Shown piece by piece: positions 2,149-58,272 of a DNA stretch of 64,000 bases. The stretch's first letter is position 1, and every line of letters begins with the position of its first letter. This DNA is from Terriglobia bacterium (GTDB lineage: Bacteria > Acidobacteriota > Terriglobia > Versatilivoradales > Versatilivoraceae), in the NCBI GenBank assembly GCA_951813285.1, contig OX638355.1, forward strand, positions 4,712,437-4,776,436, read 5' to 3'. Under the pieces are notes generated by a model that made no database searches, was not told the origin of the DNA, and worked only from the letters and a program-made list of their open reading frames with translations. A program made the position numbers and the translations under genes.

Positions 2149-2436
2149 CTATTCTTTCTCGTTTTCAGGCTTGGTCGTTGATGGAAAGCGTCGCGGATTG
2201 TGCATCTTGAGAGCAACGAGAAGTTGCTTCTGGAGATTCGAGATCTGGTCCAGCCGCCTCACGATCTCCCCGTACTGCGCTTCAGGCCTGATCGTTGATG
2301 GAAAGGGTCGCGGATTGCGCATCTCGAAAGCAAAGAAGAGTTGCTTGTGGAGATTCGAGATCATGTCCAGCTGCCTCACGATCTCCTCGTACTCCGCGCT
2401 TTGAAGGATTACTACATTTTTCACCATTGGTCTCAT
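2149..2436 (-). CDS. Hypothetical small protein (95 aa) made of two tandem 39-aa repeats
   Basis: ORF with high GC3. The protein has the internal duplication 'EYEEIVRQLDMISNLHKQLFFAFEMRNPRPFPSTIRPE' / 'QYGEIVRRLDQISNLQKQLLVALKMHNPRRFPSTTKPE'. The plus-strand alternative is Cys/Trp/Arg-rich and less protein-like. Confidence 0.3.
   Translation of the reverse strand: MRPMVKNVVILQSAEYEEIVRQLDMISNLHKQLFFAFEMRNPRPFPSTIRPEAQYGEIVRRLDQISNLQKQLLVALKMHNPRRFPSTTKPENEKE
2150..2400. repeat. Direct tandem duplication, 2 copies of about 118 bp at roughly 85% identity
   Basis: Direct alignment of 2150-2268 against 2283-2400. Mismatches are mixed transitions and transversions, not adenine-specific. Confidence 0.8.
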
Positions 2437-2761: not shown

Positions 2762-3621
2762 GTCGGAGTCAGAAGCAACCGTACCGTCTCCCCGCTCGCA
2801 TGCCGGCGTGCGGCCATACCGGTTCGATCGAGCCCGTGACACTGCCCGAGTCATTCCATGGCGGCTCGCCGCTGGCGTGCTTGCTCCGCTGTTGATGTCG
2901 GAAGACCGAGGCAGGGAGCCGCGTCTGCCTTGGCGGGATTGCTTTGTCAACAGTCGGAATTCCCGAGCCTTGCCCGGTTCCGACGGCACCCGATCGGAGT
3001 CCGGAGATGGCGGCCTTCTACTCCTCAGCCGAGGAGGGAACCGGTAATTGATAGATCGCAGGACAGAATAGACGACACAAGTGATTTCTGGGTGATGGTG
3101 GCCACGATTGTGGTGATAATATGGTGAGGGTCTGCAAGAAAACGTAATTTGTAACGCTCGGACAGCGCGGTGGGCTTTGAATTCGGCTCTTCCAGGGAGC
3201 CGGTGTTTTCAGTCTTGCAGGCCAAGCAAGTCAAAAACTCCCTACTAAGTACATGCCCTACATGCCGTGCTGAAAGGGACGGCAAAAGTGACCGTTGTAT
3301 CGAGGGCACAGCCAGGCGGCCGGGGGCCAAACCAGCCGCGCGAGAACGGGCTCCGCATGGCAGGCCGACTCTTCCCTGAGTCGTATTGATATGGTGAGAA
3401 GAGAAGCACTGGCGGCCACCCGAGAGGCATCAACGATGCTCACGGGGCCCGTATCGTGAATCGGCCCGCACTTAGGACTGTGTGGCCGAAGACAGCAGCC
3501 AGAGGGTTACATGGACTGTCGTCCCGCGCACATGAGTGTTGCCGGCTCTATGAAATATGTTAAGGAGATTAGCGTTTGCGGGGCTGCCTTCCGAGTTACG
3601 GTGAAAAACGCATGCATCCTT

Positions 3622-3806
3622 GAGCCTTTTGCAAAATTCGTCGTGCAGCGCTGGGGACGTTGTTGAATTACTGGAAAAACTTCGATCAGCCGTTCCTGAA
3701 TTGCTCTGATTCAATGACGTCTCCTAAGCGCTCTTTAGAGTAATTCCAGTAATTCAACAACGTCCCCTATTCACGTCCCCTACCTGCGGAATTTTGCAAA
3801 AGCCTC
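3622..3806. mobile_element. MITE-like element, family A (inner TIR GGGGACGTTGTTGAATTACTGGAA, outer TIR GAGCCTTTTGCAAAATTC)
   Basis: Perfect inverted termini at 3653-3676 and 3744-3767, plus outer inverted 'gagccttttgcaaaattc'/'ggaattttgcaaaagcctc'. Family recurs five more times in the window. Confidence 0.6.
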
Positions 3807-4125
3807 CCTTGAAAGCAGAATTTCCGGCAAGAGTTTTCAGTGACAGCAATCCCGTGACAGTGCCCCTGCCAAGGTCGCGCTCACAACAACCCGTGTCTCC
3901 CACCAGACGAAGCTGCTCCAGACTAACAAATCCCAACGCACTGTGCGGAGGAACCCGGTTGTAGTGGATCCGCCAGGCCTCAATGCTGTGCCGGGCATCG
4001 GCCAGATTCACAAACCACTGCACGTTCAGGCAGGCATCCCGAAACTTGCCGTTGAAGCTCTCCAACCGTGCATTCTGGATCGGCTTGCCTGGCTGGATGT
4101 AGCGCAACTCCACTCCGGTCCGCCG
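3754..4125 (-). pseudogene. IS3-family transposase (OrfB, DDE integrase core) C-terminal remnant
   Basis: 'SRRTGVELRYIQPGKPIQNARLESFNGKFRDACLNVQWF...ARHSIEAWRIHYNRVPPHSALGF' is the conserved C-terminus of IS3/IS2 OrfB. In-frame stops lie immediately upstream (about 4126-4140), so only about 120 codons remain. Local GC is lower than surrounding genes. Confidence 0.65.
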
Positions 4126-4913
4126 AGACTACAAAGCCTGACCTTATCCAAAACCACTGTGCCGGCGAATGGTGAGGCAAAAGCCCTTGCCAGTTCTTGC
4201 AAGACATCACCATATTCTCACCACATTCGCGGTCATAATCACTCAGAAATCACCTGTGTTGTCTATACTCTGCGCTGTGTCAAAAACAGACAACAGCAGA
4301 AGCAATTGATCACGCACCGTCCGGGTGGTCCACTGTCAGTGGATTGCCATACCCGGAATATTCCTGGTGACGGCAGTGTGAATTCATCGGGAACGTCAAG
4401 AAAAGCTTTTCAGGCCGGATGGCAAATCCGCCATGTTGATCAGCCTGTGAACCATGGCGAACGAGAACCGGACACCCACACGCGCTGCCTGCGCAGGCTG
4501 GACGGCATTCTCTCGAAGACCGCTGCCCTCGCGACGTGTGACTTTGAGGTGCCCGAGTCACAAGAATGATTATCGTAAACAGCTCGTGGCAACTGATTCA
4601 TTGTAGCGTCGGCACTCCCACACAATTCAATCTCTGTGTGGAAGCCCCTGGTCGATTGATTCAGGTGCGCACCGGATACAATATCCCGGGGACACGTCGG
4701 TTCATCTGGACAGGTCGTCGAACAACCATACAAGGACCTTATTGCGAGGACGTGTTTCGTCTGGGTGTCTCTCTGCTGTGGGCACGTGTGGAGGATGGCG
4801 GCGCCCCTGTAGAGATCTGTTTTCGGAGTGGTTTCTGAGCGTCGTTTCGGACTGGAAGCGCGTTCAGGCGGCTTGTTCACGAATCCTCAGAGGCAGCGGC
4901 CGGTTCCCTCTGG

Positions 4914-6404
4914 GTGTTTCGAGGCAGCGGCTCCGAAGGCGCGGTCGAGTCGGTGGTCGTAACCATGCAGGATCTGGCCCCTCAGGAGGAGACGGAACGG
5001 TTGCGCGCTGAATTTCTGAGCCTGGTAAACCACGAGTTGCGAGCCCCGCTGACCTCGATCAAGGGCTCGACCGCGACCGTGCTGGGCGCCGAGCCGGCCC
5101 CGGACACGGCCGAAATGCTGCAGTTTTTCCGAATCATCGACCAGCAAGCAGACCACATGCGAGGTCTGATCAACGACCTGCTCGATGCGGGACGCATTGA
5201 GACAGGGGCGCTTTCGGTCTCGACAGAACCGGTCGAGGTGGCGAGCCTGGTGGAGCAGGCGAGAAACACCTTTCTGAGTGGAGGCGGGCGGCACACCATC
5301 CTGATCGACCTGCCACCTGACTTGCCCAGGGTGCTGGCCGATCAGCGGCGAATCGTCCAGGTTCTCAACAACCTCTTCTCGAACGCGTCGAGGTACTCAC
5401 TCGAGTTGCTTCCGATCCGGGTCGCCGCTGCTCGGGACGACGTGCACGTGTCGATTTCAGTCTCCGACGAAGGCAGGGGGGTACCGCCGGAGCAGCTGCC
5501 GTACCTGTTCCGCAAGCAGACGCGGATGGGCAGCGAGGGGGGGATCCGTGGGAGTGGTTTAGGCCTGGCCATTTGCAAGAGCTTGGTGGAAGCCCACGGG
5601 GGACGGATTCGGGCCGAGAGCTGCGGGGTGGGCGTGGGCATGCAGACCACCTTCACGATACCGGTGGCCGAAGAAGGCGGCGTGGCCGGGAGCCTTCCGA
5701 GCTTGCCTCGGGAAGAGAGGACGGACACGCGTATTCTGGTCGTGGACGACGACCCGAAAACGCTCGGCTACGTTCGGGACGCCCTGGCATCGGAGGGTTA
5801 TGTCCCGTTGGTGACTGGAGACCCTCGCGAGGTGCCCAATCTGATCAGGACGGCGAAACCCCGGTTGGTTCTTCTCGACTCGATGCTGCCGGGAACCGAC
5901 AGAATCGAATTGATGAAACGCCTCCCCGAGATGGCCGGTTTGCCGGTGATCTTCATCTCGGGCTACGGAAGGGATGAGACGATCGCCAGGGCTCTGGATA
6001 CGGGGGCTACCGATTACATTGTCAAGCCCTTCTCGCCGACGGAGCTGGCGGCGAGAGTCCGGGCGGCCCTGCGCAAACAGTACGCCCCCCCCGAACCCTT
6101 CCGGCTAGGGGATCTGTCTATCGACTTCGAGCAACGCCGGGTGATGGTGGCCGGGCAGGCAGTCAAACTTACGCCCACCGAATACGATCTGCTGCGCGTG
6201 CTCTCGGTCAACGCCGGACGGGTCACGACATTCGATTCGTTGTTGCGCCAGGTATGGGGAGACCGTCAACCAGGAAACGTCGTGCTGTTGCGCACCTATG
6301 TGAAGAGGCTCCGTCGCAAGCTCGGCGATGGTGCAGTCAGCCCTGCCTATGTCTTCAACGAGCGCCAAGTCGGCTACCGCATGCCGAGGCCACACGATCT
6401 GTAA
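4914..6404 (+). CDS. N-terminally truncated paralog of the hybrid histidine kinase/OmpR-type response regulator (keeps HisKA-HATPase-REC-wHTH; lacks GAF and most of PAS); possibly a pseudogene
   Basis: GTG-start ORF. Homology to paralogs begins at 'GAVESVVVTMQDLAP' inside the PAS domain. Upstream sequence is IS3 remnant and non-coding low-GC DNA. Confidence 0.6.
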   Translation: MFRGSGSEGAVESVVVTMQDLAPQEETERLRAEFLSLVNHELRAPLTSIKGSTATVLGAEPAPDTAEMLQFFRIIDQQADHMRGLINDLLDAGRIETGALSVSTEPVEVASLVEQARNTFLSGGGRHTILIDLPPDLPRVLADQRRIVQVLNNLFSNASRYSLELLPIRVAAARDDVHVSISVSDEGRGVPPEQLPYLFRKQTRMGSEGGIRGSGLGLAICKSLVEAHGGRIRAESCGVGVGMQTTFTIPVAEEGGVAGSLPSLPREERTDTRILVVDDDPKTLGYVRDALASEGYVPLVTGDPREVPNLIRTAKPRLVLLDSMLPGTDRIELMKRLPEMAGLPVIFISGYGRDETIARALDTGATDYIVKPFSPTELAARVRAALRKQYAPPEPFRLGDLSIDFEQRRVMVAGQAVKLTPTEYDLLRVLSVNAGRVTTFDSLLRQVWGDRQPGNVVLLRTYVKRLRRKLGDGAVSPAYVFNERQVGYRMPRPHDL

Positions 6405-21133: not shown

Positions 21134-21249
21134 AGGGGACGTTGTTGAATTACTGGAATAACTTGAAGAAAGCGAGTAGGGAGCGTTTTCAATCAAAAGC
21201 AATTCAGGAACGGCCGATCCAATATATTCCAGTAATTCAACAACGTCCC
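21134..21249. mobile_element. MITE-like element, family A (116-bp form), inserted in an ankyrin-repeat gene
   Basis: Termini GGGGACGTTGTTGAATTACTGGAA ... TTCCAGTAATTCAACAACGTCCCC. The ankyrin reading frame begins immediately at its right end. Confidence 0.6.
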
Positions 21250-21261
21250 CGGCGCAACACT

Positions 21262-22755: not shown

Positions 22756-22903
22756 GAGCCTATTGCAAAAATTCGTCGTGCAGCGCTGGGGACGTTGTTG
22801 AATTACTGGAATAACTGGTAAAGACCGCGTAGGAGACATTATTGAACCAAAGCAATTCGGGAAGGGTTAATCGAAGTGATTCCAGTAATTCAACAACGTC
22901 CCC
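22756..22903. mobile_element. MITE-like element, family A (with left outer TIR GAGCCTATTGCAAAAATTCG)
   Basis: Same termini as 3622..3806. Internal 'caattcgggaagggttaatcgaagtgattcc' is related to the 52468 copy. Confidence 0.6.
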
Positions 22904-25068: not shown

Positions 25069-25610
25069 GGTGCTCCTGGTACGTCCCGCCGGGCGGATCA
25101 TACGAGAGGGAAACAACGCATCTTCATGGCCTGTCGGGAACAAGGGCCATGTCGTGCAAAACCGGTTTTCTACTTATCGAACATGGATGCACAGGATAAA
25201 CAGTCGGCTTGTGCTTCACGTGGGCTCACCGGCATTTGCTGCCGCCGCCTACGCGGCTCGACACCCATACACGACGTTTCCCATGGGCTGACGCCCACGG
25301 CTAAGTGCTGCCGCGGCTTCGCCGCTCTCAAGGAAGCCGGCTAAAGCAGCATATTCTCAGGTAAGTCCGGCCCCCGCCCTGTCGTGCGGATCATTCGAGG
25401 GTGAAACAATCAGAAATTGAAAATCCTTTCGCGACCTTGGCATCCCTTCGCGGTTCACCTCAATGCCTTAGTGGCCCTTCGTCGTTCTTCGTGGCCCTTC
25501 GTGGATATCTCTTTTCCTTTTGTCTTTTCTCGTTTGTTTCAAATAAGAAGGCACCGGAACGAGGTCTTGGGCAGGGCCGGAAACCCTCCTGGGGAAAAGG
25601 GGCAAATCCC

Positions 25611-25782: not shown

Positions 25783-28581
25783 ATGAAACACGCCCTGCGA
25801 GCCGCCGCGACCGCCGCCATTCTGACACTGGCCCTCTTTTCGACGTCCCTGCCGGCCGGAGAACCCATCCTCTGGGTGGAGGATTCCTTCGAGGACTTCG
25901 CCGACGGCCGGTTGGACGCGGCGGGACAGAACCTCTACGTCAGCCGGGACGGCGCCCTTCGCACCATCCACCGCTTCGATCTAAATAGAGACGGGCATCT
26001 GGACCTCATCTTCAACAGCACCCACGACAACTTCACCTACATTCCGGCCACGCTGGGCCTGTTGGAGTCCCCGCGGCGAGTTCGCCGGGCCGAGCTGGCG
26101 GTGGAGGGGAGCCTCAGGGTGGTGCTGGAGGACCTGAACCGCGACGGCCACCTGGACGCCCTCTTCTGCCCCAACCGCAGCGGGCTCCAGAACCCCAGGC
26201 GACTGCTCACCATCCTGTGGGGAGGCAAGGACGGCTGGTCCAACCGGAGAAGCCATGGCCAACTGCCGGTCTACGGCGCGCTGGCCGTGGCCGCGGCCGA
26301 CCTGGACCGGGACGGTTGGCCCGACATCGTCACCCTCAACCAGACCGCCTGGCTTCCCGGCCAGCCTGAAGGAAACATCCTGAGAATCTTCTGGGGGAGC
26401 CCGGAGGGGTTTCTCCTGACCGACACCGCCGAGCTCGGCATCCCCCAGGCACTGGACCTGGCTACCGGAGATTTCGACGGCGACGGGTTCAAGGAAGCGG
26501 CCGTGTTGAGCGAGCGCGGAGTGGCGGAGGTGGTCCGAGGCCGGGCGGCCCCGGGGTCGCCTCGGGAGCTGAACCGACAGGAGGTGCCGCTCCCGGGCAA
26601 GGAGGGCCTGTGCCTCACGGCCGCCGATGCCGACGGCGACTCACGCATCGACCTGCTGGTGGGCACCGATCGGGGTAGAGTCTACTTCGTGGGCGGAAAA
26701 GCCGGAACCGGCTGGGGAGAGCCCCGCACCTGGGCCGCTCCCAACGCCTCCCACATTGCCGTGGGTTACCTCAACGGAGACAGGCATCCCGACCTGGTGT
26801 TGACCGACTTCACCCTGGCCCGGGCCGGAGGGGGGGAAGCCGCCGGGGCCTCCGAAAGCGTCGCGAAGCCTCTCCAGATTCTCTGGGGCTCGGCCGAAGG
26901 GTTCGACGCCGGCCGCTCCACCGGCTTGGCCATTGCCTACGCCCGGTCCAGCGCGGTGGGGGACCTGGACGGAGACGGCCACCAGGACCTGTCGGTAGCG
27001 GTCCACCAGAGCTCGAAGCAGTTCGAAACCAACTCACTGGTCTTCTTCGGGACCGGCAGCAGCGTGCTGGACCAGCATCCCTTGACGCTGCGGACCATCG
27101 GCGCCACCGGCACCGCCATCGTTCCACCCGGCGGCTCCCTGCCGGGCCGGGTCCTCTTCTGCAATAGCCTGGGCGGCACCGTGGCCGAACGGGTGCCCTT
27201 GCACGTCTACTGGGGAAGTTCCGAAGGTTTCTCCGCCTCTAACCGTTGGGAGATCCCCTTCCAGAGCGGCTATGAAGCCAGCGCCGCCGACCTCAACCGC
27301 GACGGCTATCCGGACCTGATCGTGCTCAACTCCCAGCACGCCGGCGACGCCGCCGCAATGGATCCCACCGCCGGGGCCAATATCTTCTGGGGCGGACCTG
27401 GCGGCTTCGACCTGGAGGGCCGGCGAACCGTCCTGCGGGAGCGCAACCTCGGCTCCAGCAACGTGGCCGACCTCAACCGCGACGGCTACCTGGACCTGGT
27501 ACTGGGTGCCTTCGAAGCCAAAAAGGGAAAGAACTATCTTGTGATCCGATATGGATCCGAAGAGGGGTTTCTGCCGTCCGGCCGGCTGGCGCTACCCTTC
27601 GACTATCGCACCGTCGGCAGCCTGGTCGCCGATCTCAACGGGGACGACTGGCTGGACACCGCCTTCGTCTCCTCGCAGCAGAACCGCCTCCACATCCTCT
27701 GGGGCGGCCCGGAGATGTTCTCCCCGGAGCGCCGCAGCCAACTCCGCATCCCCTTCCCCATCAGCCTGGAAGCCGCCGACTTCAACGGGGACGGACAACT
27801 GGACCTGGCGGTGGGCAGCTACAGGGACCCGGTGTCCCACCACCACGACATGGGACTGTCGATTTTCTGGGGCCAGGACGGACAATTCCGATCCTCCAAC
27901 GCCCAATGGCTTCCCGGATTCACCCCCATCGGCATGGCCGTGGCCGATTTCGACGGCGACGGCCACCTGGACCTGTTCTCGCCCCACTACCTGGCGGAGC
28001 TGACCCGCGAGTCGGTGGCCTCCTACCTCTATTGGGGAGGCCCCCAGGGGTTCGGCACCCGCAACCGCACCATCCTCATCACCGACTCGGCCCACGACGC
28101 CATGGCCGGGGACTTCGATCAGGACGGACGGCTGGACCTGGCCGTCTCCTGCCACACCCGGGACGGGAACCACCATACCGACTCCAAGGTCTTCTACAAT
28201 GACGGGAATCGGTTCCGCAATCCCCGGGTGGAAACCCTGCCCACCATCGGAACCCACTGGATGTGGATTCAGGACGTGGGGCACATCCATCATCGCCAGT
28301 GGAAGCAGGTCTACCGCTCCTCGGTCTTCGCCTGGGACCGGGAGGTCTCGGCGGGCCGGCTGACCTTCCGGGCCGAGCAGGCCCAGGGAACGGGGTTGAG
28401 CTTCCAGGTCCGTTCCTCACCCGACTCAAAGGGACTGGCCGAGCAGGCTTGGCGCTCTCTGCAGGAGGGAGCCTTCGATCTGAATCTCGGAGACCGGCGC
28501 CTGCAGTACCGGGCCGTGCTGGAATCGGGCAACGGAGATCTCTATCCGGTCGTGGACCGGGTCGAGGTCCAACTGAAGTAA
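25783..28581 (+). CDS. Secreted FG-GAP/VCBS-repeat protein (integrin-alpha-like beta-propeller, CRTAC1/ASPIC-like)
   Basis: Start at 25783 'MKHALRAAATAAILTLALFSTSLPAGE' (signal peptide; GGAGG 10 nt upstream). More than 8 repeats of the DxNxDGxxD type ('DLNRDGHLD','GDFDGDG','ADFNGDGQLD','ADFDGDGHLD'). Confidence 0.85.
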   Translation: MKHALRAAATAAILTLALFSTSLPAGEPILWVEDSFEDFADGRLDAAGQNLYVSRDGALRTIHRFDLNRDGHLDLIFNSTHDNFTYIPATLGLLESPRRVRRAELAVEGSLRVVLEDLNRDGHLDALFCPNRSGLQNPRRLLTILWGGKDGWSNRRSHGQLPVYGALAVAAADLDRDGWPDIVTLNQTAWLPGQPEGNILRIFWGSPEGFLLTDTAELGIPQALDLATGDFDGDGFKEAAVLSERGVAEVVRGRAAPGSPRELNRQEVPLPGKEGLCLTAADADGDSRIDLLVGTDRGRVYFVGGKAGTGWGEPRTWAAPNASHIAVGYLNGDRHPDLVLTDFTLARAGGGEAAGASESVAKPLQILWGSAEGFDAGRSTGLAIAYARSSAVGDLDGDGHQDLSVAVHQSSKQFETNSLVFFGTGSSVLDQHPLTLRTIGATGTAIVPPGGSLPGRVLFCNSLGGTVAERVPLHVYWGSSEGFSASNRWEIPFQSGYEASAADLNRDGYPDLIVLNSQHAGDAAAMDPTAGANIFWGGPGGFDLEGRRTVLRERNLGSSNVADLNRDGYLDLVLGAFEAKKGKNYLVIRYGSEEGFLPSGRLALPFDYRTVGSLVADLNGDDWLDTAFVSSQQNRLHILWGGPEMFSPERRSQLRIPFPISLEAADFNGDGQLDLAVGSYRDPVSHHHDMGLSIFWGQDGQFRSSNAQWLPGFTPIGMAVADFDGDGHLDLFSPHYLAELTRESVASYLYWGGPQGFGTRNRTILITDSAHDAMAGDFDQDGRLDLAVSCHTRDGNHHTDSKVFYNDGNRFRNPRVETLPTIGTHWMWIQDVGHIHHRQWKQVYRSSVFAWDREVSAGRLTFRAEQAQGTGLSFQVRSSPDSKGLAEQAWRSLQEGAFDLNLGDRRLQYRAVLESGNGDLYPVVDRVEVQLK

Positions 28582-30952: not shown

Positions 30953-31003
30953 GGGTTGGTGGAAAGTGGGGAGTCTGCGTTTCTCTATGTGAGGTCGGTG
31001 TTG

Positions 31004-31237
31004 GCCCCCCTCCTGATCGACTGCGGGCTGCGCCCTTGTCTCTCCGACTCCCCCTCAAGAGGGGAGTGATACTTGAGGCCTGCACCAGGCCTCTTGCCCG
31101 ATTCCTGGGCAGGATGTAAACCATGTTCCCGGTCTACCGCATAGACTCCGTTCCCTCTTCATCACACGGATATCACTCCCCCCTTGAGGGGGAGTCGGAG
31201 AAGCCGAGCCGCAGGCGAAGGCTGATGCGGTGGGGGG
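31004..31237. repeat. Hairpin-TIR repeat, family R copy 1 (TIR TCTCCGACTCCCCCTCAAGGGGGGAGTGATA at both ends, inverted)
   Basis: Left 31040-31070 and right 31172-31202 are reverse complements. Each contains the CTCCCCC-tcaa-GGGGGAG stem-loop. The first about 130 bp match 52233-52365 and 58010-58244 (reverse). Confidence 0.55.
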
Positions 31238-34839: not shown

Positions 34840-37311
34840 CTACACTTCGCCCGGCCTCGCCATACGGTAGCCGACCCGGCGTACGTTAAAGATGTAGGCG
34901 GAATTCTGCGCGTCATCGCCGAGCTTGCGACGGAGCCTCTTCACATAGGTGCGAACCAGGCGAGGATCGCCTTGCTCCCGCTTGCCCCACACTTGGCGCA
35001 GCAACGACTCGAAGGTGACGACCCGTCCCGCATTGACTGAAAGTACTCTGAGCAAATCGAATTCGGTGGCTGTCAACTCCAGCGGATTCCCGGCCACCTT
35101 CACCCGTCGTCCCGCGTAGTCGATCGCGACCTCCCCCAACCTGAAGGGTTCAGGCGGCTCGGCTACTCGGCGCAGGACCGCCTGGACTCTCGCCACCAGC
35201 TCCGTCCGCGAGAAGGGCTTGACGATGTAGTCGGAGGCGCCCTTCTGCAGGGCCTTGGCGACGGTCCCGTCCCTTCCATAACCGGAGATGAAAATGACCG
35301 GCAGACCGGCTATCTCCGGAACTCGCTCCATTAACTCAATGCCATCGGTTCCGGGCAGCATCAGGTCCAGCAGGACCAATTCGGGCTTCTTGGCATTGAT
35401 CAGATGGGGCACCTCCTGAGGGTCGCCCGTCACAAAGGGTATGTAGCCCGCGGCCGTAAGAGAGTCTCGAACGAAACGCAATGTCAGCGGGTCGTCGTCC
35501 ACCACCAGGATGCGTGTTCGCTCCAGTCTTTCCCGAGGCGAACGTGTGGGATTCAGGGCGAAGCCGTTAGTGGCACGGATGGCGGTCTCCTCGGCTATCG
35601 GAATCGTGAACGTGAATCGTGCGCCCAAACCTGTTCCACCGCTTTCCGCCCGGATGCGGCCCCCATGGGCTTCCACCAGTCCCTTGCAGATGGACAGCCC
35701 CAAGCCCGACCCCCTGATCCCGTCTTCGCCGCCTCCGACACGGGCGTACTTGCGGAACAGATTCGGCAACTGATCCGGAGGTATGCCCCGACCTTCATCC
35801 GAGATCGAGACGGCCACGTACAATCCATCCACTACGGCCGAGACCCGGATGGGCGCAGAGTCGGAAGACTGCCTCGACGCATTGGAGAAGAGGTTGTTGA
35901 GAACCTGGACGATGCGACGATGGTCGGCCAGCACCCGGGGCAGGTCTGGCGGCAGGTCGATCAGGAGGGCGTGCCGGCCACCGCCACTCAGAAAGGTATT
36001 CCTGGCTTGCTCCACCAGGTCGGCCACCTCTGCCGGCTCAGGCGTGACCGACAGAGTGCCCGCCTCGATACGCCCGGCATCCAGCAGGTCGCTGATCAGG
36101 CCGCGCATGTGATCGGCCTGTTGTTCGATGATGCGGAAAAACTGAATAATCTCGGCAAGGTCCGGGGCCGGAGAGGCGTCCATCACGGTGGCGGCCGAGC
36201 CCTTGATGGAAGTCAGCGGCGCTCGCAGTTCGTGACTCACCAAGCTCAGAAACTCGGCCCGCGACCGCTCCAGCTCTTCCAGCGGCGCCATGTCCTGAAT
36301 GACAACCACCACCGACTCGACCGCGCCGTCCCCGGAACGGATGGGCGTGGCGTTGACCAACGTGGTGACGCTCCCGCCGCCCGGAACTTCAAACACGGTC
36401 TCACTGGCACGCAGCATCGTACCTCTGCTCAGCACATGCGCCGCCGGATACTCTTCCAATGAGAATTCACTACCGTCGGCGCACCGGCACTTCATGACCT
36501 CCAGCAACTGTTCCGCGGACTGACCTGCGGGGCTCAGATCCTCGACAATTCGCCTCGCCTCCCGATTGATCAACACCGGCTGTCCGGTCCGCGCATTGAA
36601 AACCGCAACGCCTATAGGCGAGGTGTCAACCAGGGCCTCCAGATCGGCCCGGGCCCGATGCTCCTTACGGTAAGTGCGCGCGTTGGCGATCGCCGTGGCC
36701 GCCTGGGCGGCGAACAACACCAGAACATCCTCGTCTTCGCTGGAAAACTCCCGTCCGCCGGCCTTGCCGGCCAGATAGAAGATGCCGACACTCACCCCCC
36801 GATGACACAACGGCGTTCCCAGAACGGTCTTCGGCAGGATCGGGTGCCGGGAAAGACCAAGCGACCGGACGTAGCCATGCATGTCAGTTGATCTCAAGGC
36901 ACCCTCACGGTCCCGGAGGTGTTCGAACAACCGGAGCCCGTCGGCCCATTCCGTCATCTGGTGGCGCTCTTCCTGAGTGAAGCCGGAAAAAACGACCTCC
37001 TCCAACTGTCCCGAGTCCCCGATGGTCGCGATAACACCATAACGGGTGCCGATCAGCGCGCGGGCGCCTTCTACAATCTCGGACAAGACCGTGTCGAACT
37101 CAAGGCTTGCGCTGATGCGCAGGCTGGCCGCGCTTAGCTTGGAGATGCGATCCCGCAGGACCGCGACCTCCTGCATCAGTTCGTCGCGACTCTTCAATTC
37201 CCTTCTCCTTTGGATACCGGAGCCAAACCCGGCTCCTGGCCGCCGCTCCCTGTCTCGAAGCAGACACCGGAGTCGAGGCCCGCCAAGCTCCGCTGGCGCC
37301 AAGACCAGCAT
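34840..37311 (-). CDS. Full-length cytoplasmic hybrid sensor kinase / OmpR-type regulator (coiled-coil-GAF-PAS-HisKA-HATPase-REC-wHTH)
   Basis: 823-aa ORF with no TM segments. All domains readable. The real start may be the internal Met at about 37176 ('MQEVAVLRDRISKL') because the first 45 residues are Arg/Gly-rich. Confidence 0.85.
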   Translation of the reverse strand: MLVLAPAELGGPRLRCLLRDRERRPGAGFGSGIQRRRELKSRDELMQEVAVLRDRISKLSAASLRISASLEFDTVLSEIVEGARALIGTRYGVIATIGDSGQLEEVVFSGFTQEERHQMTEWADGLRLFEHLRDREGALRSTDMHGYVRSLGLSRHPILPKTVLGTPLCHRGVSVGIFYLAGKAGGREFSSEDEDVLVLFAAQAATAIANARTYRKEHRARADLEALVDTSPIGVAVFNARTGQPVLINREARRIVEDLSPAGQSAEQLLEVMKCRCADGSEFSLEEYPAAHVLSRGTMLRASETVFEVPGGGSVTTLVNATPIRSGDGAVESVVVVIQDMAPLEELERSRAEFLSLVSHELRAPLTSIKGSAATVMDASPAPDLAEIIQFFRIIEQQADHMRGLISDLLDAGRIEAGTLSVTPEPAEVADLVEQARNTFLSGGGRHALLIDLPPDLPRVLADHRRIVQVLNNLFSNASRQSSDSAPIRVSAVVDGLYVAVSISDEGRGIPPDQLPNLFRKYARVGGGEDGIRGSGLGLSICKGLVEAHGGRIRAESGGTGLGARFTFTIPIAEETAIRATNGFALNPTRSPRERLERTRILVVDDDPLTLRFVRDSLTAAGYIPFVTGDPQEVPHLINAKKPELVLLDLMLPGTDGIELMERVPEIAGLPVIFISGYGRDGTVAKALQKGASDYIVKPFSRTELVARVQAVLRRVAEPPEPFRLGEVAIDYAGRRVKVAGNPLELTATEFDLLRVLSVNAGRVVTFESLLRQVWGKREQGDPRLVRTYVKRLRRKLGDDAQNSAYIFNVRRVGYRMARPGEV

Positions 37312-37495
37312 CCTGACCCCATGAGTTCATGATAATAACACTAAAATGACTGAATTATTCACACTATTGGCATTCAGTTTTATTGCACAATCAGAAACAA
37401 GGCTGGAAAGGAAGGGTCGCGCTACGTCGATGCCTTGCAGTTACTGGACCGCACGGAAGAAGAGCTGCGGGAAGCCGAGGCCGAGAGAAAAACAG

Positions 37496-37708
37496 GGGAC
37501 GTTGTTGAATAATTGGAAATGCCGGGCGGGGTGATTCTGAAATGCCTTGGATTCGACTGGAAGGGCTCGAAACCTCGTCGTTTGACGGGATGTGCTGAGA
37601 ACCAGGACCGTTCAGCCGGGCCTGACCGAGCACCGGCTGCTCCTTTGCTGCCGGCCAGGGCTCACGCACGGGAAAAAAGTGATTCCCGTAAGCCAACAAC
37701 TTCGCCAT
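37496..37708. mobile_element. MITE-like element, family A long subfamily (about 210 bp); right terminus degenerate
   Basis: Left terminus GGGGACGTTGTTGAATAATTGGAA. The interior is about 75% identical to the 38392..38603 copy. Confidence 0.5.
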
Positions 37709-37736
37709 ATTTTATCCCCGCCAAAATCGGTTTGGG

Positions 37737-38198
37737 TCACGACGTGAGGATCTTGTAAAGCAGGCCGAACATGGGAATGAACAGCAGGCTGATGAGCGTC
37801 CAGATGATCTTGGTGAGGTTGTTCATCTCCGCTCGGAGAGCGGTGAATTGAGCTTGCAGACCCTTGATCTGAGTTTGCATCTCAGACCGGAGCTCGGTGA
37901 TCTGAGTTTGCACGTCGGACCGGAGCTCGGTGATCTGAGTTTGCACGTCGGACCGGAGCTCGGTGATCTGGGCTCCGATGGCGGTGGTGACGTTCTGGCC
38001 ACTCAAGTGACGTATCTCCTCGATGGCGGGATGGATCAACTTGGGGTCCGCGCCGCTGTCGATCAGGACCCGATGAATTGCGCTGGTTTGAGGTTTTGAC
38101 GAGGTCGGCACTAGCTTTCTCCCTTTCCGGATGGGGTGATTCCGCTCACCCAACCCGTGGAAACGATTCAATGCGAAGAGGGAGAAAGGTGCGGCCAC
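37737..38198 (-). CDS. Small coiled-coil protein with C-terminal TM anchor (DUF1640/XhlA-like architecture) and 3 tandem 11-aa repeats
   Basis: 'QITELRSDVQTQITELRSDVQTQITELRSEMQTQIKGLQAQFTALRAEMNNLTKIIWTLISLLFIPMFGLLYKIL'. A GTG start at 38111 preceded by AGGGAGAAAG is an alternative and would give 124 aa. The DUF1640 assignment is from memory of the family pattern. Confidence 0.5.
   Translation of the reverse strand: MAAPFSLFALNRFHGLGERNHPIRKGRKLVPTSSKPQTSAIHRVLIDSGADPKLIHPAIEEIRHLSGQNVTTAIGAQITELRSDVQTQITELRSDVQTQITELRSEMQTQIKGLQAQFTALRAEMNNLTKIIWTLISLLFIPMFGLLYKILTS
37869..37967. repeat. 33-bp direct tandem repeat x3 inside the coiled-coil gene (copies 2 and 3 identical)
   Basis: ctgagtttgca(c/t)(g/c)tc(g/a)gaccggagctcggtgat repeated at 37869, 37902 and 37935. 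Confidence 0.85.
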
Positions 38199-38391
38199 GC
38201 CGGGGACGGCCGGGGCCGATCGGCACCGGCGAAACCATACCTTGAACAGTATACCCTGACAGGCCCGCTATTGACGCCATGAATCCTTGCCCGGCGGCCC
38301 CGACTCAGTCTCGAGGCCACCGGGAACAATCAGGCAACCAATAGGGTTGCCGCCGACTTAGGGGGACAGCGCGAGATGGCCCGGGAGAACC

Positions 38392-38603
38392 GGGGACGTT
38401 GTTTTATTACTGGAAAAATCGGGTGGAGCGACTCTGAAATGCTTTGGAAATGGACGGGAAGGGTCGACACCGGGTAGTGTGACAGGGCGTGCTGGGAAGC
38501 AGGTTCGTTCAGCCGAGTTCGACGAAGCGTCGGCTGGTCGTTATCCGCCGGCCAAGGCGTAGATGTCGGAATAGAGTTATTCCAGTAATTCAACTACATC
38601 CCC
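38392..38603. mobile_element. MITE-like element, family A long subfamily (212 bp), both termini intact
   Basis: GGGGACGTTGTTTTATTACTGGAA ... TTCCAGTAATTCAACTACATCCCC. Confidence 0.6.
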
Positions 38604-38727
38604 CGTACTTGCCGGAGACGCTTGAACCACCCCTCCCACCGAGCACCCATCCAGTCCCTTCTCCCCACCGCTTCAGGTATACTGGACGCCATTCACCCAT
38701 CGGAACCGAACTCACCGAGGAGACACC

Positions 38728-39336
38728 ATGCTCTCGCGTATCCCCATCCTGGTGGCGCTTGCCGCCCTTTCGCTCGGCTTGGGCTGTCAATCGCCGACGC
38801 CGGAACAGTCGGGCGCCGTCGACGTACTGGACGACTTCGAAAAGGACTTTTTCGTTGCTTTCGGAGACCCGGCCTCCTGGAAGGCCGAGGGGGGCGTCAT
38901 CCAGTGCAACGGTACGCCCAACGGGTATCTCTCCACCCGGAAGTCCTACTCCAATTACGTTCTGACGCTGGAGTTCCGCTACCCCGAGCAGGCCGGCAAC
39001 AGCGGCGTGTTCCACTACATCTCCGGGGAGCACAAGGTGTGGCCGGCCTGCGTGGAGGTCCAGGGCCTCTATTCGCGGCTGGCGCAGATCTTTCCCTTGG
39101 GGGGCGCCGAGGGTCCCCGAAGCGACGGCGACGAGGAGGCGCGCACCCGGGCCCGCAAGCCGCACACCGAGTGGAACCGGCTCGATATCACCTCGCGGGA
39201 CGGCGTGATCGGCGCCAAGCTCAACGGAGTCTTCATTGGAGAGAGCGGGCCCTATCCAGTGCGCCAGGGGCCGATCGGCCTCCAGTCGGAAGGGGCGCCG
39301 GTGCATTTCCGCAATATCGAGATTCGGGAGTTTTGA
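38728..39336 (+). CDS. DUF1080 (3-keto-disaccharide hydrolase / LamG-like) domain lipoprotein
   Basis: Signal plus lipobox 'LSLGLGCQS'. 'W..EGGVI','NSGVF','WN.L.I...GVIGAKLNG','GPIGLQSEGAPVHFRNIEIRE' match the PF06439-type pattern. Confidence 0.8.
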   Translation: MLSRIPILVALAALSLGLGCQSPTPEQSGAVDVLDDFEKDFFVAFGDPASWKAEGGVIQCNGTPNGYLSTRKSYSNYVLTLEFRYPEQAGNSGVFHYISGEHKVWPACVEVQGLYSRLAQIFPLGGAEGPRSDGDEEARTRARKPHTEWNRLDITSRDGVIGAKLNGVFIGESGPYPVRQGPIGLQSEGAPVHFRNIEIREF

Positions 39337-52122: not shown

Positions 52123-52232
52123 GGCGTCAGCGCCCTCGTACTCTTCCGTAAAGGTGCATCACGAGACCCGCCCGAAGCCCTTGTACGACGCCGCCAACAG
52201 GCCGCTGATATTCCGCACGGGACGCCGCGTTT

Positions 52233-52465
52233 GCCCCCCTCCGGATCGACTGCGGGCGGAGCCCTTGTCTCTCCGACTCCCCCTCAAGGGGGGAGTGATT
52301 CTTGAGGCTTGCAAAGGGCCTATTGCCCCATTCCTGGGCACGATGTAAACCATGTTCCCGGTTTAATGTGTGGACCATGCCCACCCGGGAGCGCGGGCGT
52401 CCCGCCCGCTTCCTTATTCCTGCAATCAGCCTGCGGTCCACGCCACTCTCTTGCAAGGAGGGCAC
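52233..52465. repeat. Hairpin-TIR repeat, family R copy 2 (about 230 bp)
   Basis: About 90% identical to the reverse complement of 58010..58244. Abuts MITE family A copy at 52468. Confidence 0.55.
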
Positions 52466-52467
52466 CG

Positions 52468-52540
52468 CTGGGGACGTTATTGAACAAGAGCAATTCGGAA
52501 GCGGTCGATCAAAGTTATTCCAGTAATTCAACAACGTCCC
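52468..52540. mobile_element. MITE-like element, family A short form (73 bp; termini intact, interior deleted)
   Basis: GGGGACGTTATTGAACAAG ... TTCCAGTAATTCAACAACGTCCCC. Confidence 0.5.
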
Positions 52541-52762
52541 CTACTCCCCTCAGCACGAGAGGTTGCTGCACCACAAGCTGGCTCGGGCGGCGATCCGCTA
52601 CGGGCTTGCGGATGCCCAGGATTACAGGACGCCGGACTCCCAAAACCAAATCCTGTATATCCTGTTAATCCATGTGAATTATTCTTGTAAATCACGAGTC
52701 GGGAATTGCACGCCCGAACCGCCAAGCGAAGGCAGATGGCGTAGGGGGTGCCCCCCGGGGTC

Positions 52763-57538: not shown

Positions 57539-58009
57539 TCTGTCCCCAACCTCAACCGCGCCCAAGGTGGTTGACCCTTATTTCCCGCAAGACAGGGCCA
57601 TTCTACACCCATTGGGCAAACAGACCGGAGCCTCAAGTCACATCACCGGTAGGACCGGGTCAGCGCCTGCCCCCCACCGCATCAGCCTTCGCCATTCGGC
57701 TCCCCCTCAAGGGGGGAGTGATACTCGATTTTCTTGAAGGACGTTTCATGAGATTGGGGAGTAGACTCCCGGAGATAGTCAATTGAAAAATCCTAGCCAC
57801 GGGCAGTGCCGTGAGTTAGGGGAGAGCCGCGAATGCGGCGGTTGGCGTGGGTCGTCCGAGGAAACGTCTCCTGCAAGCCATCCTTATAGAGCAGCGTAGC
57901 TGCGGTCTCGTGTAGCCCCGGGCGGGAGCCCGGGGTCCTGTGAGTTCTGCGCCAACCTAGCCGCGTAGGCGGCGGATTGAGAGCTGCGTCCCCGAACGCG
58001 CGGCCAGTG

Positions 58010-58244
58010 GTGCTCTCCCTGTAGGGGAGTGCCATGGACCGCGGGCTGATTGCAGGAATAAGGATGCGGGCGGGACGCCCGCGCTCCCGGGGGGGCATCG
58101 TCCACACATTAAACCGGGAGAATGGTTTACATCCTGCCCGGGAATCGGGCAAGAAGCCTGGTTCAGCGCTCAAGAATCACTCCCCCCCTTGAGGGGGAGT
58201 CGGCGAGACAAGGGCAGAGCCCGCAGTCGAGCCGGTGGGGGGCC
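58010..58244. repeat. Hairpin-TIR repeat, family R copy 3 (inverted relative to copy 2)
   Basis: Reverse complement matches 52233..52465 over about 225 bp, including the CTCCCCCTCAAGGGGGGAGTGATTCTTGAG hairpin. Confidence 0.55.
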
Positions 58245-58272
58245 AACGCGGCATCCCGATGGTGGGGTGCAG

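What the first reader, a model, noticed from the sequence alone, without database searches (positions are those of the whole stretch)
37496..38603. Small coiled-coil membrane-anchored protein gene with a 33-bp x3 tandem repeat, bracketed by two direct MITE-A copies
The two long-subfamily MITE copies lie in the same orientation, 1.1 kb apart, around a single small gene (37737-38198). The gene encodes QITELRSDVQT 11-aa repeats plus a C-terminal TM helix, in the style of DUF1640/XhlA. Repeat copies 2 and 3 are identical at DNA level, so the expansion is very recent and length variation is possible. Direct repeats also allow excision of the whole unit.
Basis: seen in the sequence. Interest (0 to 1): 0.5.

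Follow-up and report, generated by a model that had tools for sequence, protein, structure and literature searches.

The report
Variable-length membrane-anchored stalk protein between old repeats
A real small gene for a membrane-anchored coiled-coil protein, whose stalk length changes through in-frame DNA repeats, sits between two old copies of a 230-bp palindromic repeat that in related sponge-associated Acidobacteriota separates single genes in a variable genome island; this is interesting but mostly ordinary genome dynamics.

Summary
There is a 33-bp x3.2 tandem repeat at 37865-37970, and two units are identical. It lies inside a minus-strand gene flanked by two co-oriented copies of a TIR-bearing element, here called E.

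Corrections:
- The gene most likely starts at GTG 38111, giving 124 aa rather than 153.
- The E copies are about 230 bp long and only 72% identical to each other, so they are old.

The protein has a conserved 47-aa head, a stalk of 11-residue and 7-residue repeats, and a C-terminal TM helix. The head is under purifying selection (pN/pS 0.18). More than 400 homologues exist, in 'Candidatus Versatilivorator' (Acidobacteriota) and related Acidobacteriota MAGs where the organism could be read. Their lengths step by 11 and 7 residues, from 95 to 179 aa. At the syntenic locus the lengths are 124, 131, 138, 142, 149 and 157 aa, so repeat-number variation is confirmed.

The architecture and the hendecad consensus match bona fide DUF1640 proteins. 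Formal membership fails: PF07798 scores 14 bits against a 33.5 cutoff, and the ATKxD neck is absent. XhlA is not supported.

E-G-E is not a recent composite transposon. In relatives, co-oriented E copies punctuate a hypervariable island between the hydrolase and histidine-kinase genes. That island holds 1-3 copies of the gene plus unrelated single genes. A conserved leader can pair with the ribosome-binding site.

The parts
37737..38111 (-). Gene G: 124-aa tail-anchored head-stalk-anchor protein (GTG start at 38111, TGA stop at 37737-37739)
   Evidence: The ORF is listed. The product is identical to P0015 from a 5,108,082-bp contig. The start codon position is conserved as ATG in 28 homologous loci. 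Head pN/pS is 0.18. AF2 gives helix 9-18 and helix 23-123, with pLDDT 81.7.
37971..38111 (-). Head domain, aa 1-47 (MPTSSKPQTSAIHRVLIDSGADPKLIHPAIEEIRHLSGQNVTTAIGA)
   Evidence: The head is nearly invariant across 39 family members. It is conserved in distant relatives as xSAIFRALRSxDxDPxLAxEAxEExRxxAGxNVIxxIGA. A head-only hhalign against DUF1640 heads gives probability 49.6%, P=1.7e-4, and the alignment is colinear.
37865..37970 (-). 33-bp x3.2 in-frame tandem repeat encoding three hendecads: QITELRSDVQT x2 (identical DNA) and QITELRSEMQT
   Evidence: TRF result. Family D12.
37809..37864 (-). Membrane-proximal stalk: heptad-type unit QIKGLQA, then QFTALRAEMNNLTK
   Evidence: Alignment. Relatives differ here by 21-bp units: L146 has +1 and L140 has +2.
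37755..37808 (-). C-terminal transmembrane helix IIWTLISLLFIPMFGLLY, followed by KILTS
   Evidence: This is read directly from the sequence as 18 hydrophobic residues. It is nearly invariant in the family.
38112..38253 (-). Conserved non-coding leader: TATACT box (38253-38248), anti-SD CUUUCUCCCU (38188-38179) and SD AGGGAGAAAG (38124-38115)
   Evidence: Alignment of 23 related loci (25 rows including two distant relatives). The consensus fold has 95% of cells paired but little covariation. The single-sequence MFE is -64 kcal/mol, z = -2.4. The promoter and the regulatory role are inferred.
38254..38382 (-). Distal 5' region of the module, between E and the TATACT box
   Evidence: It is present in L002, L003, L005, L146 and L150. 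About 105 nt of it are absent in L001 and L140.
38383..38613 (-). Upstream copy of element E (core 38392-38603, TIR-bearing, in gene orientation)
   Evidence: The RNA fold has z = -4.4. Positional counterparts, ending 268-281 nt before the start codon, occur in L003, L005, L142, L148 and L150. It is absent in L001, L002 and L140.
37489..37713 (-). Downstream copy of element E (core 37495-37706), starting 30 nt after the stop codon; the TIR proximal to the gene is degraded
   Evidence: It is 94% identical to the counterpart in L146/L147. The same offset, about 33 nt after the stop, is seen in 12 or more gene copies.

Best explanation
Shown.
- The region holds one functional gene, G. Its product has a small conserved N-terminal head, an alpha-helical stalk and a C-terminal membrane anchor.
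- The stalk is encoded by in-frame 33-bp (11-residue, a-d-h hydrophobic pattern) and 21-bp (7-residue) tandem units.
- In the family these units are gained, lost and homogenised. Stalk length therefore differs between paralogues and between orthologues at the same chromosomal site, while the head and anchor stay almost invariant.

Inferred.
- Unit turnover happens by replication slippage or unequal recombination.
- With no signal peptide, the head and stalk are cytoplasmic, and the stalk acts as a spacer that sets how far the head stands from the membrane. This matches what has been described for the DUF1640/MCUR1 head-neck-stalk-anchor family.
- G is a monocistronic module with its own conserved upstream region. 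That region includes a TATACT box and a leader of about 135 nt in which an anti-SD stretch can pair with the ribosome-binding site, which would gate translation.

Shown.
- The two flanking repeats are old copies (72% identical) of a palindromic element E of about 230 bp. E shares its terminal inverted repeats with a 115-bp MITE scattered in the window.
- In relatives, E always has the orientation of G and sits at two fixed offsets: about 33 nt after a G stop, and 217-281 nt before a G start.
- In relatives, E punctuates a hypervariable island between the 3-keto-disaccharide hydrolase gene and the hybrid histidine-kinase gene. That island holds 1-3 G copies and unrelated single genes.

Inferred.
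- The window carries the minimal E-G-E state of this island. It was produced by duplication and collapse of [leader-G-E] modules and by occasional gain or loss of E, not by a recent composite transposition.
For: Gene reality:
- Head pN/pS is 0.18 over 406 pairs.
- 415 homologues have a near-invariant head and anchor.

Repeat variation:
- Family lengths are 113, 124, 135, 146, 157, 168 and 179 aa, plus series offset by 7. Lengths in the fetched loci run from 95 to 157 aa.
- The syntenic locus DUF1501-HYD-G-HK holds 124 aa (window), 138 (L140), 131 (L142), 149 (L002), 142+113 (L003), 157+139+120 (L005/L149) and 139+135+120 (L150).
- L146, the relative with by far the most similar downstream E (94%), differs by exactly one 21-bp unit.
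- Hendecads 1 and 2 carry lineage-specific shared substitutions: SDV/SDV, SEV/SEV and SDL/SDL.

Architecture:
- AF2 predicts one long helix.
- PF07798-positive proteins (P0157, P0160, P0167, P0202; 45-55 bits) have the same layout and the 11-mer EIAELRAEMKA or EITELRTELKT, compared with QITELRSEMQT here.
- Stalk length matters for MCUR1 (PMC8224590).

Leader.

Element E:
- 20 of the 25 long copies tallied in the first set of loci are G-adjacent at fixed offsets.
- 21 of 21 long copies in six 20-kb loci lie inside the island and are co-oriented.
- L148 has eight co-oriented copies, one per gene.
- E-filled and E-less junctions have clean boundaries.
Against: - Neither expression nor the transcript ends are known.
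- The leader hairpin rests on conserved sequence with almost no covariation (3 pairs).
- The -35 region is not recognisable.
- Topology and oligomeric state are inferred, not tested.
- Homology to DUF1640 is not established: PF07798 is sub-threshold, the head hhalign gives only 50% probability, and the full-profile hhalign aligns only one repeat.
- Tandem G arrays without any E (L009, L011, L139) show that E is not needed for duplication.
- Uniform E orientation around unrelated genes (L148) is not explained by module duplication alone.
Confidence: 0.7

Rival explanations
1. E-G-E is a composite, MITE-flanked mobile unit. In this reading the gene is cargo between two MITEs that a transposase acting in trans can move or excise, and the unit arrived here recently.
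For: - There are two co-oriented TIR elements around a single gene.
- Presence/absence of E occurs with clean boundaries, and CCG(R)TTTT lies on both sides at one junction.
- The gene family occurs at several loci per genome.
Against: - The flanking copies are 72% identical, and the inner TIR of one is degraded.
- The site is syntenic in at least 8 relatives, and the E copies sit at the same offsets in them.
- No consistent target duplication appears around E or around E-G-E.
- Paralogues are 65-85% identical, so none is a recent copy.
- No transposase with matching ends was found. The IS1595 and IS1634-like elements nearby have unrelated TIRs.
Confidence: 0.05
2. E is a site-specific recombination site. 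The hydrolase-to-kinase interval would then be an integron-like array lacking an integrase (CALIN-like), in which single-gene cassettes, G being the commonest, are inserted, excised and shuffled.
For: - In L148 eight co-oriented E copies each separate one gene: G, EVE, G, ankyrin, a 330-aa protein, an 82-aa protein and VOMI.
- All 21 long E copies in six 20-kb loci lie inside the island and share one orientation.
- Nine E copies not adjacent to G are also co-oriented.
- Island content differs between relatives.
- E is an imperfect palindrome.
Against: - No tyrosine recombinase lies within +/-10 kb in six loci (gene tables).
- The E ends do not fit attC R''/R' (RYYYAAC...GTTRRRY). GTTGTTG is on the left and CAACAAC on the right.
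- E is about 230 bp, longer than typical attC sites.
- The same TIR belongs to a 115-bp MITE with mixed orientation.
- G modules carry their own promoter-like region.
- No identical cassette was seen in two different array positions.
Confidence: 0.1
3. G is the toxin of a type I toxin-antitoxin-like module or a similar stress module: a small membrane protein whose translation is held off by an SD-sequestering leader and released by RNA processing or by an sRNA.
For: - The protein is small and membrane-anchored.
- A long conserved leader has 10 perfect anti-SD:SD base pairs.
- The gene is multi-copy, forms tandem arrays and is restricted to one lineage.
Against: - At 124 aa, with a conserved soluble head and a long coiled coil, it is unlike known type I toxins, which are usually under 60 aa.
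- No antisense RNA or promoter was detected.
- The head-stalk-anchor layout matches DUF1640 better.
Confidence: 0.05
4. G is a phage XhlA-like or holin-associated lysis protein left behind by a prophage.
For: It has a coiled coil plus a C-terminal TM, as XhlA does. There are weak PHROG hits to hemolysin (E=0.075) and to an Rz-like spanin (E=0.0036).
Against: - All hits are sub-threshold coiled-coil noise.
- No phage or lysis genes occur near any of about 35 copies.
- The locus is a conserved chromosomal site.
Confidence: 0.02

Closest known systems
DUF1640 / CCDC90-like family (Pfam PF07798; MCUR1, CCDC90B and prokaryotic homologues)
   Same: - The order of parts is the same: small N-terminal helical head, coiled-coil stalk, single C-terminal TM anchor.
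- Bona fide bacterial members retrieved here have stalks of tandem 11-residue repeats with almost the same consensus (EIAELRAEMKA or EITELRTELKT, against QITELRSEMQT) and of variable number.
- The head pattern xxLxxxGxxPxxxxxxxE aligns colinearly.
- Stalk length is functionally relevant in MCUR1 (PMC8224590).
   Different: - The PF07798 score is 14.1 bits against a cutoff of 33.5.
- The hallmark beta-layer neck [aliphatic]-A-T-K-x-[DE] (PMC4786415) is replaced by GQNV(I/T)TAIGAQ.
- The head is shorter.
- Homology is not proven: hhalign gives 50% for the head and aligns only a repeat with full profiles.
MITEs and other intergenic palindromic repeats (Correia/NEMIS, ERIC, REPIN-type elements)
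   Same: - E is non-coding, 115-230 bp, with perfect to near-perfect terminal inverted repeats of 24-28 bp.
- It is multi-copy.
- It shows presence/absence polymorphism with clean boundaries.
- It lies just after stop codons.
- It is hairpin-forming, with z = -9.3 for the short form.
   Different: - No consistent target-site duplication was found and no autonomous partner was identified.
- All long-form copies seen (46 in the window and fetched loci) have one orientation and cluster in one island next to one gene family. That is atypical for transposing MITEs.
Chromosomal integron cassette arrays / CALINs (attC clusters lacking an integrase)
   Same: Co-oriented imperfect palindromes each follow a single, mostly small gene in a strain-variable array at a fixed chromosomal site.
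   Different: - The attC R''/R' consensus is absent and the element is about 230 bp long.
- No integrase was seen within 10 kb.
- The G cassettes carry their own promoter-like region.
- The TIR is shared with an ordinary MITE.
Contingency-type in-frame tandem repeats in bacterial coiled-coil proteins (e.g. M proteins, alpha C protein, trimeric autotransporter stalks)
   Same: In-frame DNA repeats change the length of a fibrous segment without touching the terminal domains. The repeats evolve in concert.
   Different: Those proteins are surface-exposed and under immune selection. This protein has no signal peptide, so its stalk is predicted to be cytoplasmic.

Membership tests
DUF1640 / CCDC90-like (PF07798) | Pfam HMM score at or above the gathering threshold (33.5 bits) | tested here: not met
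   The window protein scores 14.1 bits, E=0.043. The best distant relative, P0152, scores 32.8 bits, and that match is in the coiled-coil region only.
DUF1640 / CCDC90-like (PF07798) | Head - neck - coiled-coil stalk - C-terminal TM anchor architecture | tested here: met
   AF2 gives helix 9-18, a turn, then helix 23-123 that includes the hydrophobic C-terminal 18 residues. PF07798-positive proteins have the same order of parts.
DUF1640 / CCDC90-like (PF07798) | Beta-layer neck motif [aliphatic]-A-T-K-[polar]-[D/E] at the start of the stalk (Hartmann et al. 2016, PMC4786415) | tested here: not met
   The motif is absent from the window protein and from all 39 aligned members, which have GQNV(I/T)TAIGAQ at that position. 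It is present in 15 of 18 DUF1640-type proteins retrieved.
DUF1640 / CCDC90-like (PF07798) | Detectable profile-profile homology of the head domain | tested here: inconclusive
   The head-only hhalign gives probability 49.6%, P=1.7e-4, with 28 colinear columns. The full-length hhalign aligns only 15 repeat columns. The PDB profile search hits 6h9l_A ('Uncharacterized protein') at E=0.004, within the coiled-coil region.
XhlA haemolysin (PF10779) / phage lysis accessory proteins | Significant profile match and a lysis-cassette neighbourhood (holin, endolysin) | tested here: not met
   PF10779 is not among the best 25 of 38 Pfam matches at E<=1, all of which are below their cutoffs. The PHROG hemolysin hit has E=0.075. 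No phage genes occur in the neighbourhoods.
MITE (miniature inverted-repeat transposable element) | Terminal inverted repeats and multiple dispersed copies | tested here: met
   The 24-nt TIR gives 10 hits in the window against 0 expected. Short copies have perfect TIRs. Long copies occur in at least 12 loci.
MITE (miniature inverted-repeat transposable element) | Target-site duplication flanking each copy | tested here: inconclusive
   No consistent duplication was seen at 18 long and 4 short copies. At one junction type, CCG(R)TTTT lies on both sides of E.
MITE (miniature inverted-repeat transposable element) | Insertion polymorphism (filled versus empty sites) | tested here: met
   L002, L140 and L001 lack the upstream copy. 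G-G junctions occur with E (L005, L150) and without E (L003, L146, L150).
MITE (miniature inverted-repeat transposable element) | Autonomous partner element with the same TIRs encoding a transposase | tested here: not met
   None was found in the window or the loci. The IS1595 and IS1634-like elements nearby have unrelated ends. Whole genomes could not be scanned.
Integron attC site / CALIN | R''(RYYYAAC)...R'(GTTRRRY) boxes, length about 55-140 bp, integron integrase nearby (for a complete integron) | tested here: not met
   The ends are GGGGACGTTGTTG...CAACAACGTCCCC and the length is about 230 bp. No Phage_integrase-family gene occurs in six 20-kb loci.
Known RNA families (Rfam 15) | Covariance-model match of E or of the leader | tested here: not met
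   No match with E<=1 was found in 37300-38800. RNAalifold on 15 E copies gives no covariation support.

The most novel reading that the evidence does not exclude
The long E elements may not be transposing MITEs. They could be directional recombination or insulator sites that organise the hydrolase-to-kinase interval of these sponge-associated Acidobacteriota into an integron-like array without an integrase. In that array single-gene cassettes would be exchanged: the variable-stalk protein G, an EVE-domain gene, an ankyrin-repeat gene, a VOMI gene and others. The window would show the minimal one-cassette state.
Probability: 0.1. Interest if true: 0.75.

Novelty: new variant of a known kind. 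Interest (0 to 1): 0.38.

Why it matters
The finding gives a clean natural example of a head-stalk-anchor membrane protein whose stalk length is tuned in 11- and 7-residue steps while head and anchor stay fixed. The protein family is uncharacterised and is not captured by Pfam, NCBIfam or PHROGs. It is expanded in 'Candidatus Versatilivorator' and related Acidobacteriota MAGs. If stalk length sets the reach of the head, as proposed for MCUR1/DUF1640, the paralogue series is a ready-made ruler experiment. The co-oriented E repeats also mark a hypervariable island. Its organisation of one repeat per gene deserves a genome-wide look. Otherwise the features are ordinary: slippage-prone repeats, old MITE-like elements and tandem duplication.

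Tried and rejected
- **Pfam, NCBIfam and PHROGs** on the protein gave only sub-threshold coiled-coil or apolipoprotein-type hits.
- **PDB profile search** found apolipoproteins through their 11/22-mer periodicity, and 6h9l at E=0.004. This was not taken as homology.
- **Foldseek of the AF2 model against PDB** returned nothing, because a single long helix is uninformative.
- **Full-length hhalign against DUF1640** collapsed onto one repeat.
- **Rfam** had no match for E or for the leader.
- **RNAalifold on 15 E copies** showed no covariation, so a structured-RNA gene reading of E was dropped.
- **A coding reading of the upstream ORF extension** (153-204 aa gene calls) was rejected, because the region has 1-nt indels and all loci share the ATG at the position of 38111.
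- **A coding reading of the ORFs inside E** was not pursued, because E copies differ in length by numbers not divisible by three.
- **The metagenome scan with a 17-mer from E** returned 120 loci that were all chance matches. The pattern was too short, and the scan was wasted.
- **Look-up of the window's own protein** in the contig index found no record.
- **IS elements next to E** (IS1634-like in L012, IS1595 in L148) were checked as possible autonomous partners. Their ends are unrelated.
- **A search for a target-site duplication** was inconclusive.
- **Literature searches** for 'Versatilivorator', and for MITEs in sponge Acidobacteria, found nothing relevant.
Full report
**1. Observation**

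TRF reports a single array in the region: 37865-37970, period 33, 3.2 copies, 95% matches. The repeat finder shows that units 37898-37937 and 37931-37970 are letter-for-letter identical and that the first unit differs at three positions (family D12).

The 24-nt end sequence GGGGACGTTGTTGAATTACTGGAA occurs 10 times in the window at 3 or fewer mismatches, with 0 expected. These hits define the following copies:
- three 115-bp elements with perfect inverted ends (3653-3767, 21135-21250, 22788-22903);
- one shorter derivative (52470-52541);
- two long, co-oriented copies at 37495-37706 and 38392-38603.

The two long copies are spaced 897 bp start to start and are only about 72% identical.

Two corrections apply. 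First, homology among long copies extends 6-10 bp beyond the GGGG/CCCC ends (consensus GGAAAGTAA|GGGG...CCCC|TGTTTTCC). The elements are therefore about 230 bp, at 37489-37713 and 38383-38613. Second, the ORF 37737-38198 is only the maximal reading frame.

**2. The gene**

In 28 homologous gene copies from related genomes, the codon equivalent to 38111 is ATG; it is GTG in the window. It is preceded by AGGGAGAAAG. The sequence upstream of it carries 1-nt insertions and deletions, so it is non-coding. The 124-aa product is identical to P0015, recorded on a 5,108,082-bp contig.

The word-indexed search found 415 homologues. Genome hits name the organisms as 'Candidatus Versatilivorator' and related Acidobacteriota MAGs; the lineage is given. 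Several isolate names suggest sponge-microbiome studies, but that is my own reading of the names and was not verified.

Across 39 members the first 47 residues and the last 35 or so are almost invariant. Nei-Gojobori counts over 406 pairs give pS 0.30 and pN 0.05 for the head, a ratio of 0.18. This is a real gene under purifying selection.

AlphaFold2, run with the family alignment, predicts a short helix (9-18), a turn at SGADP, and one continuous helix from 23 to 123 that ends in the hydrophobic stretch IIWTLISLLFIPMFGLLY (pLDDT 81.7). The 11-mer QITELRSDVQT places hydrophobic residues at positions 2, 5 and 9, which is the a-d-h pattern of hendecad coiled coils. The periodicity background is taken from PMC4786415. 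The membrane-proximal units QI(N/K)GLQA are heptads.

**3. Repeat-number variation**

Among the 120 best homologues, lengths fall on ladders of 11 residues (113, 124, 135, 146, 157, 168, 179) and on ladders offset by 7. In the fetched loci the range is 95-157 aa.

The chromosomal site is conserved: PSCyt - DUF1501 - 3-keto-disaccharide hydrolase - G - hybrid histidine kinase/response regulator. At this site the protein length is:

| Locus | Length of G (aa) |
|---|---|
| Window | 124 |
| L140/L141 | 138 |
| L142 | 131 (+88) |
| L002 | 149 |
| L003 | 142 + 113 |
| L005/L149 | 157 + 139 + 120 |
| L150 | 139 + 135 + 120 |
| L148 | 124 + 135 |

The relative whose downstream E is by far the most similar is L146/L147, with that copy 94% identical. 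It has the same three hendecads, including the identical SDV pair, and differs by exactly one 21-bp unit, giving 131 aa against 124. Length variation through the repeats is thus confirmed between lineages.

The identity of the two units does not by itself show a very recent duplication. The identical pair is shared with L146. Other relatives each carry their own homogenised pair (SEV/SEV in L140, SDL/SDL in L001). That is the signature of concerted evolution.

**4. Family assignment**

Pfam, NCBIfam and PHROGs give only sub-threshold hits of the coiled-coil or apolipoprotein type. PF07798 (CCDC90-like, DUF1640) scores 14.1 bits against a cutoff of 33.5. A profile search of PDB sequences finds apolipoproteins through their 11/22-mer periodicity, and 6h9l_A ('Uncharacterized protein') at E=0.004. 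Foldseek finds nothing.

The exhaustive profile search gave two kinds of result:
- More distant full-length relatives with the same head (xSAIFRALRSxDxDPxLAxEAxEExRxxAGxNVIxxIGA), other repeat types in the stalk, and the same anchor.
- Many proteins that are bona fide PF07798 members, scoring 45-55 bits.

The PF07798 members have exactly the same layout, and their stalks are built from tandem 11-mers such as EIAELRAEMKA or EITELRTELKT.

A head-only profile-profile comparison aligns residues 8-35 of G colinearly with residues 7-34 of the DUF1640 heads, with probability 49.6% and P=1.7e-4. A full-length comparison collapses onto one repeat. The hallmark neck motif of DUF1640, [aliphatic]-A-T-K-x-[D/E] (PMC4786415), is absent from G.

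My conclusion is that G works like a DUF1640 head-stalk-anchor protein and may be a divergent branch of that superfamily, but it fails the membership tests. XhlA has no support. For MCUR1, the stalk length is reported to be important for positioning the head (PMC8224590, citing Adlakha et al. 2019). That is the basis for the inferred spacer function. With no signal peptide and a C-terminal anchor, the head and stalk should be cytoplasmic; this too is an inference.

**5. Upstream region**

A block starting at about 38290 is conserved in all loci. It contains an invariant TATACT (38253-38248) and a leader of about 135 nt. In the leader, CUUUCUCCCU (38188-38179) can pair with the SD AGGGAGAAAG (38124-38115), enclosing a small hairpin.

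The consensus fold has 95% of cells paired in 20 sequences, but there are only three compensatory pairs. The single-sequence fold has z = -2.4. Translational gating is therefore a reasonable prediction and not a demonstrated feature. No sigma-70 consensus promoter was found.

**6. The flanking elements**

Mapping E and G in all fetched loci shows the following:
- The long element always has the orientation of G.
- It sits at fixed offsets. It starts about 33 nt after a G stop codon and ends 217-281 nt before a G start codon.
- In the first tally, 20 of 25 long copies were G-adjacent in this way.
- In tandem arrays one E lies between consecutive G copies. L005/L149 read E-G-E-G-E-G-E.
- Arrays without any E also exist (L009, L011, L139; the G1-G2 junctions of L003, L146 and L150).

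Filled and empty junctions have clean boundaries, and CCG(R)TTTT lies on both sides in one junction type. No consistent target duplication appears elsewhere.

The upstream copy is missing in L002, L140 and L001. In L001 the downstream copy has collapsed to a TIR-TIR hairpin of about 36 nt. E has no Rfam match and no covariation support. No autonomous partner was found. Neighbouring IS1595 and IS1634-like elements have unrelated ends, and one of them has inserted into an E copy.

The window's two copies are only 72% identical to each other, whereas the downstream one is 94% identical to its counterpart in L146. They are old and inherited, not a fresh pair of insertions. E-G-E is not a recently arrived composite transposon.

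**7. Wider pattern**

In six 20-kb loci, all 21 long E copies lie inside the interval between the hydrolase and the kinase (or BNR) genes, and all share one orientation. L148 has eight of them, each separating one gene. In order these are G, an EVE-domain gene, G, an ankyrin-repeat gene, three further small genes including a VOMI-domain one, and then an FGE-sulfatase gene. The non-G intervals carry no trace of the G leader.

The interval is thus a hypervariable island, and the window shows its minimal state. Module duplication and collapse explains the G part of the island. It does not explain the uniform orientation of E around unrelated genes.

An integron-like reading is not excluded, but several facts speak against it:
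- E does not fit the attC consensus.
- E is about 230 bp long.
- No recombinase lies within 10 kb.
- E shares its TIR with an ordinary 115-bp MITE of mixed orientation.

I give this reading about 10%.

**8. Verdict**

It is a new, uncharacterised variant of known kinds: a DUF1640-like head-stalk-anchor protein with slippage-prone hendecad and heptad repeats, together with MITE-like palindromic repeats. It is of moderate interest. The most promising follow-up is a genome-wide census of E and a long-read census of repeat and module copy number.

Noticed in passing
L148:7629-15469 (ENA ERZ25766727 ctg356050; syntenic with window 37489-38613): Eight co-oriented long E copies each separate one gene, in a cassette-array-like layout: G, an EVE-domain gene, G, an ankyrin-repeat gene, a 330-aa gene, an 82-aa gene, a VOMI-domain gene, then an FGE-sulfatase gene. 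No recombinase lies within 10 kb.
   Followed up: partly
window 38109-38111: The window's gene starts with GTG, whereas all 28 homologous copies in related loci have ATG at this codon. This is a single A>G change, which may lower translation initiation.
   Followed up: partly
window 25281-25326 (+) and 57890-57935 (-): There are two matches to the Rfam family Acido-Lenti-1 sRNA (RF01687), at 46.8 and 41.4 bits against a gathering score of 37. This is consistent with an acidobacterial origin.
   Followed up: no
window 3653-3767, 21135-21250, 22788-22903, 52470-52541: These are short (115-bp, one 72-bp) members of the same TIR family. They have perfect 24-bp inverted ends, mixed orientation, and an internal sequence unrelated to the long form. 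Copies 3653 and 22788 also share 20 bp of left flank.
   Followed up: partly
window 1-1889, 4935-6400 and 34841-36754: There are three paralogous hybrid histidine-kinase/response-regulator genes (GAF-PAS-HisKA-HATPase-REC-Trans_reg_C), 71-79% identical at DNA level. The copy next to G is inverted relative to the other two.
   Followed up: no
window 31000-31237, 52218-52471, 57686-57728, 58004-58258; also L003:~2400 and L148:~7460: A second palindromic repeat family is built around CTCCCCCTCAAGGGGGGAGTGAT. It has direct and inverted copies (84-90% identical) in the window and occurs in the same island in relatives.
   Followed up: no
L001:3001-4737 versus L145 and L140: In the MAG SB0661_bin_38, G is followed directly by the BNR_2 gene and the histidine-kinase gene is missing. 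Other genomes have G copies on both sides of the kinase (L142, L145). The gap may therefore be a G x G recombination deletion.
   Followed up: no
L012:~3585-5668: An IS1634-like transposase element (604 aa; ends CCCATCTTTAACA/TGTTAAAGATGGG) has inserted into the right TIR of an E copy downstream of G. CTAA lies on both sides.
   Followed up: partly
L005:2270-2480 (and L149:9317-9508): A different small ORF lies between two E copies upstream of the G array. It has an N-terminal TM followed by a coiled coil (VNTDTIAIIVAILGVGLALWSAIDSRHKDTRQDMAALRQEIHADIAVFNARIDALYQVLF...).
   Followed up: no
window 2164-2397: There is a 117-bp x2 tandem duplication (87% identical) near the first histidine-kinase paralogue.
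   Followed up: no
window 25974-28156: There is a run of 9-11 diverged repeats encoding FG-GAP/VCBS-type Dx[DN]xDGxxD calcium-binding motifs within a large gene.
   Followed up: no
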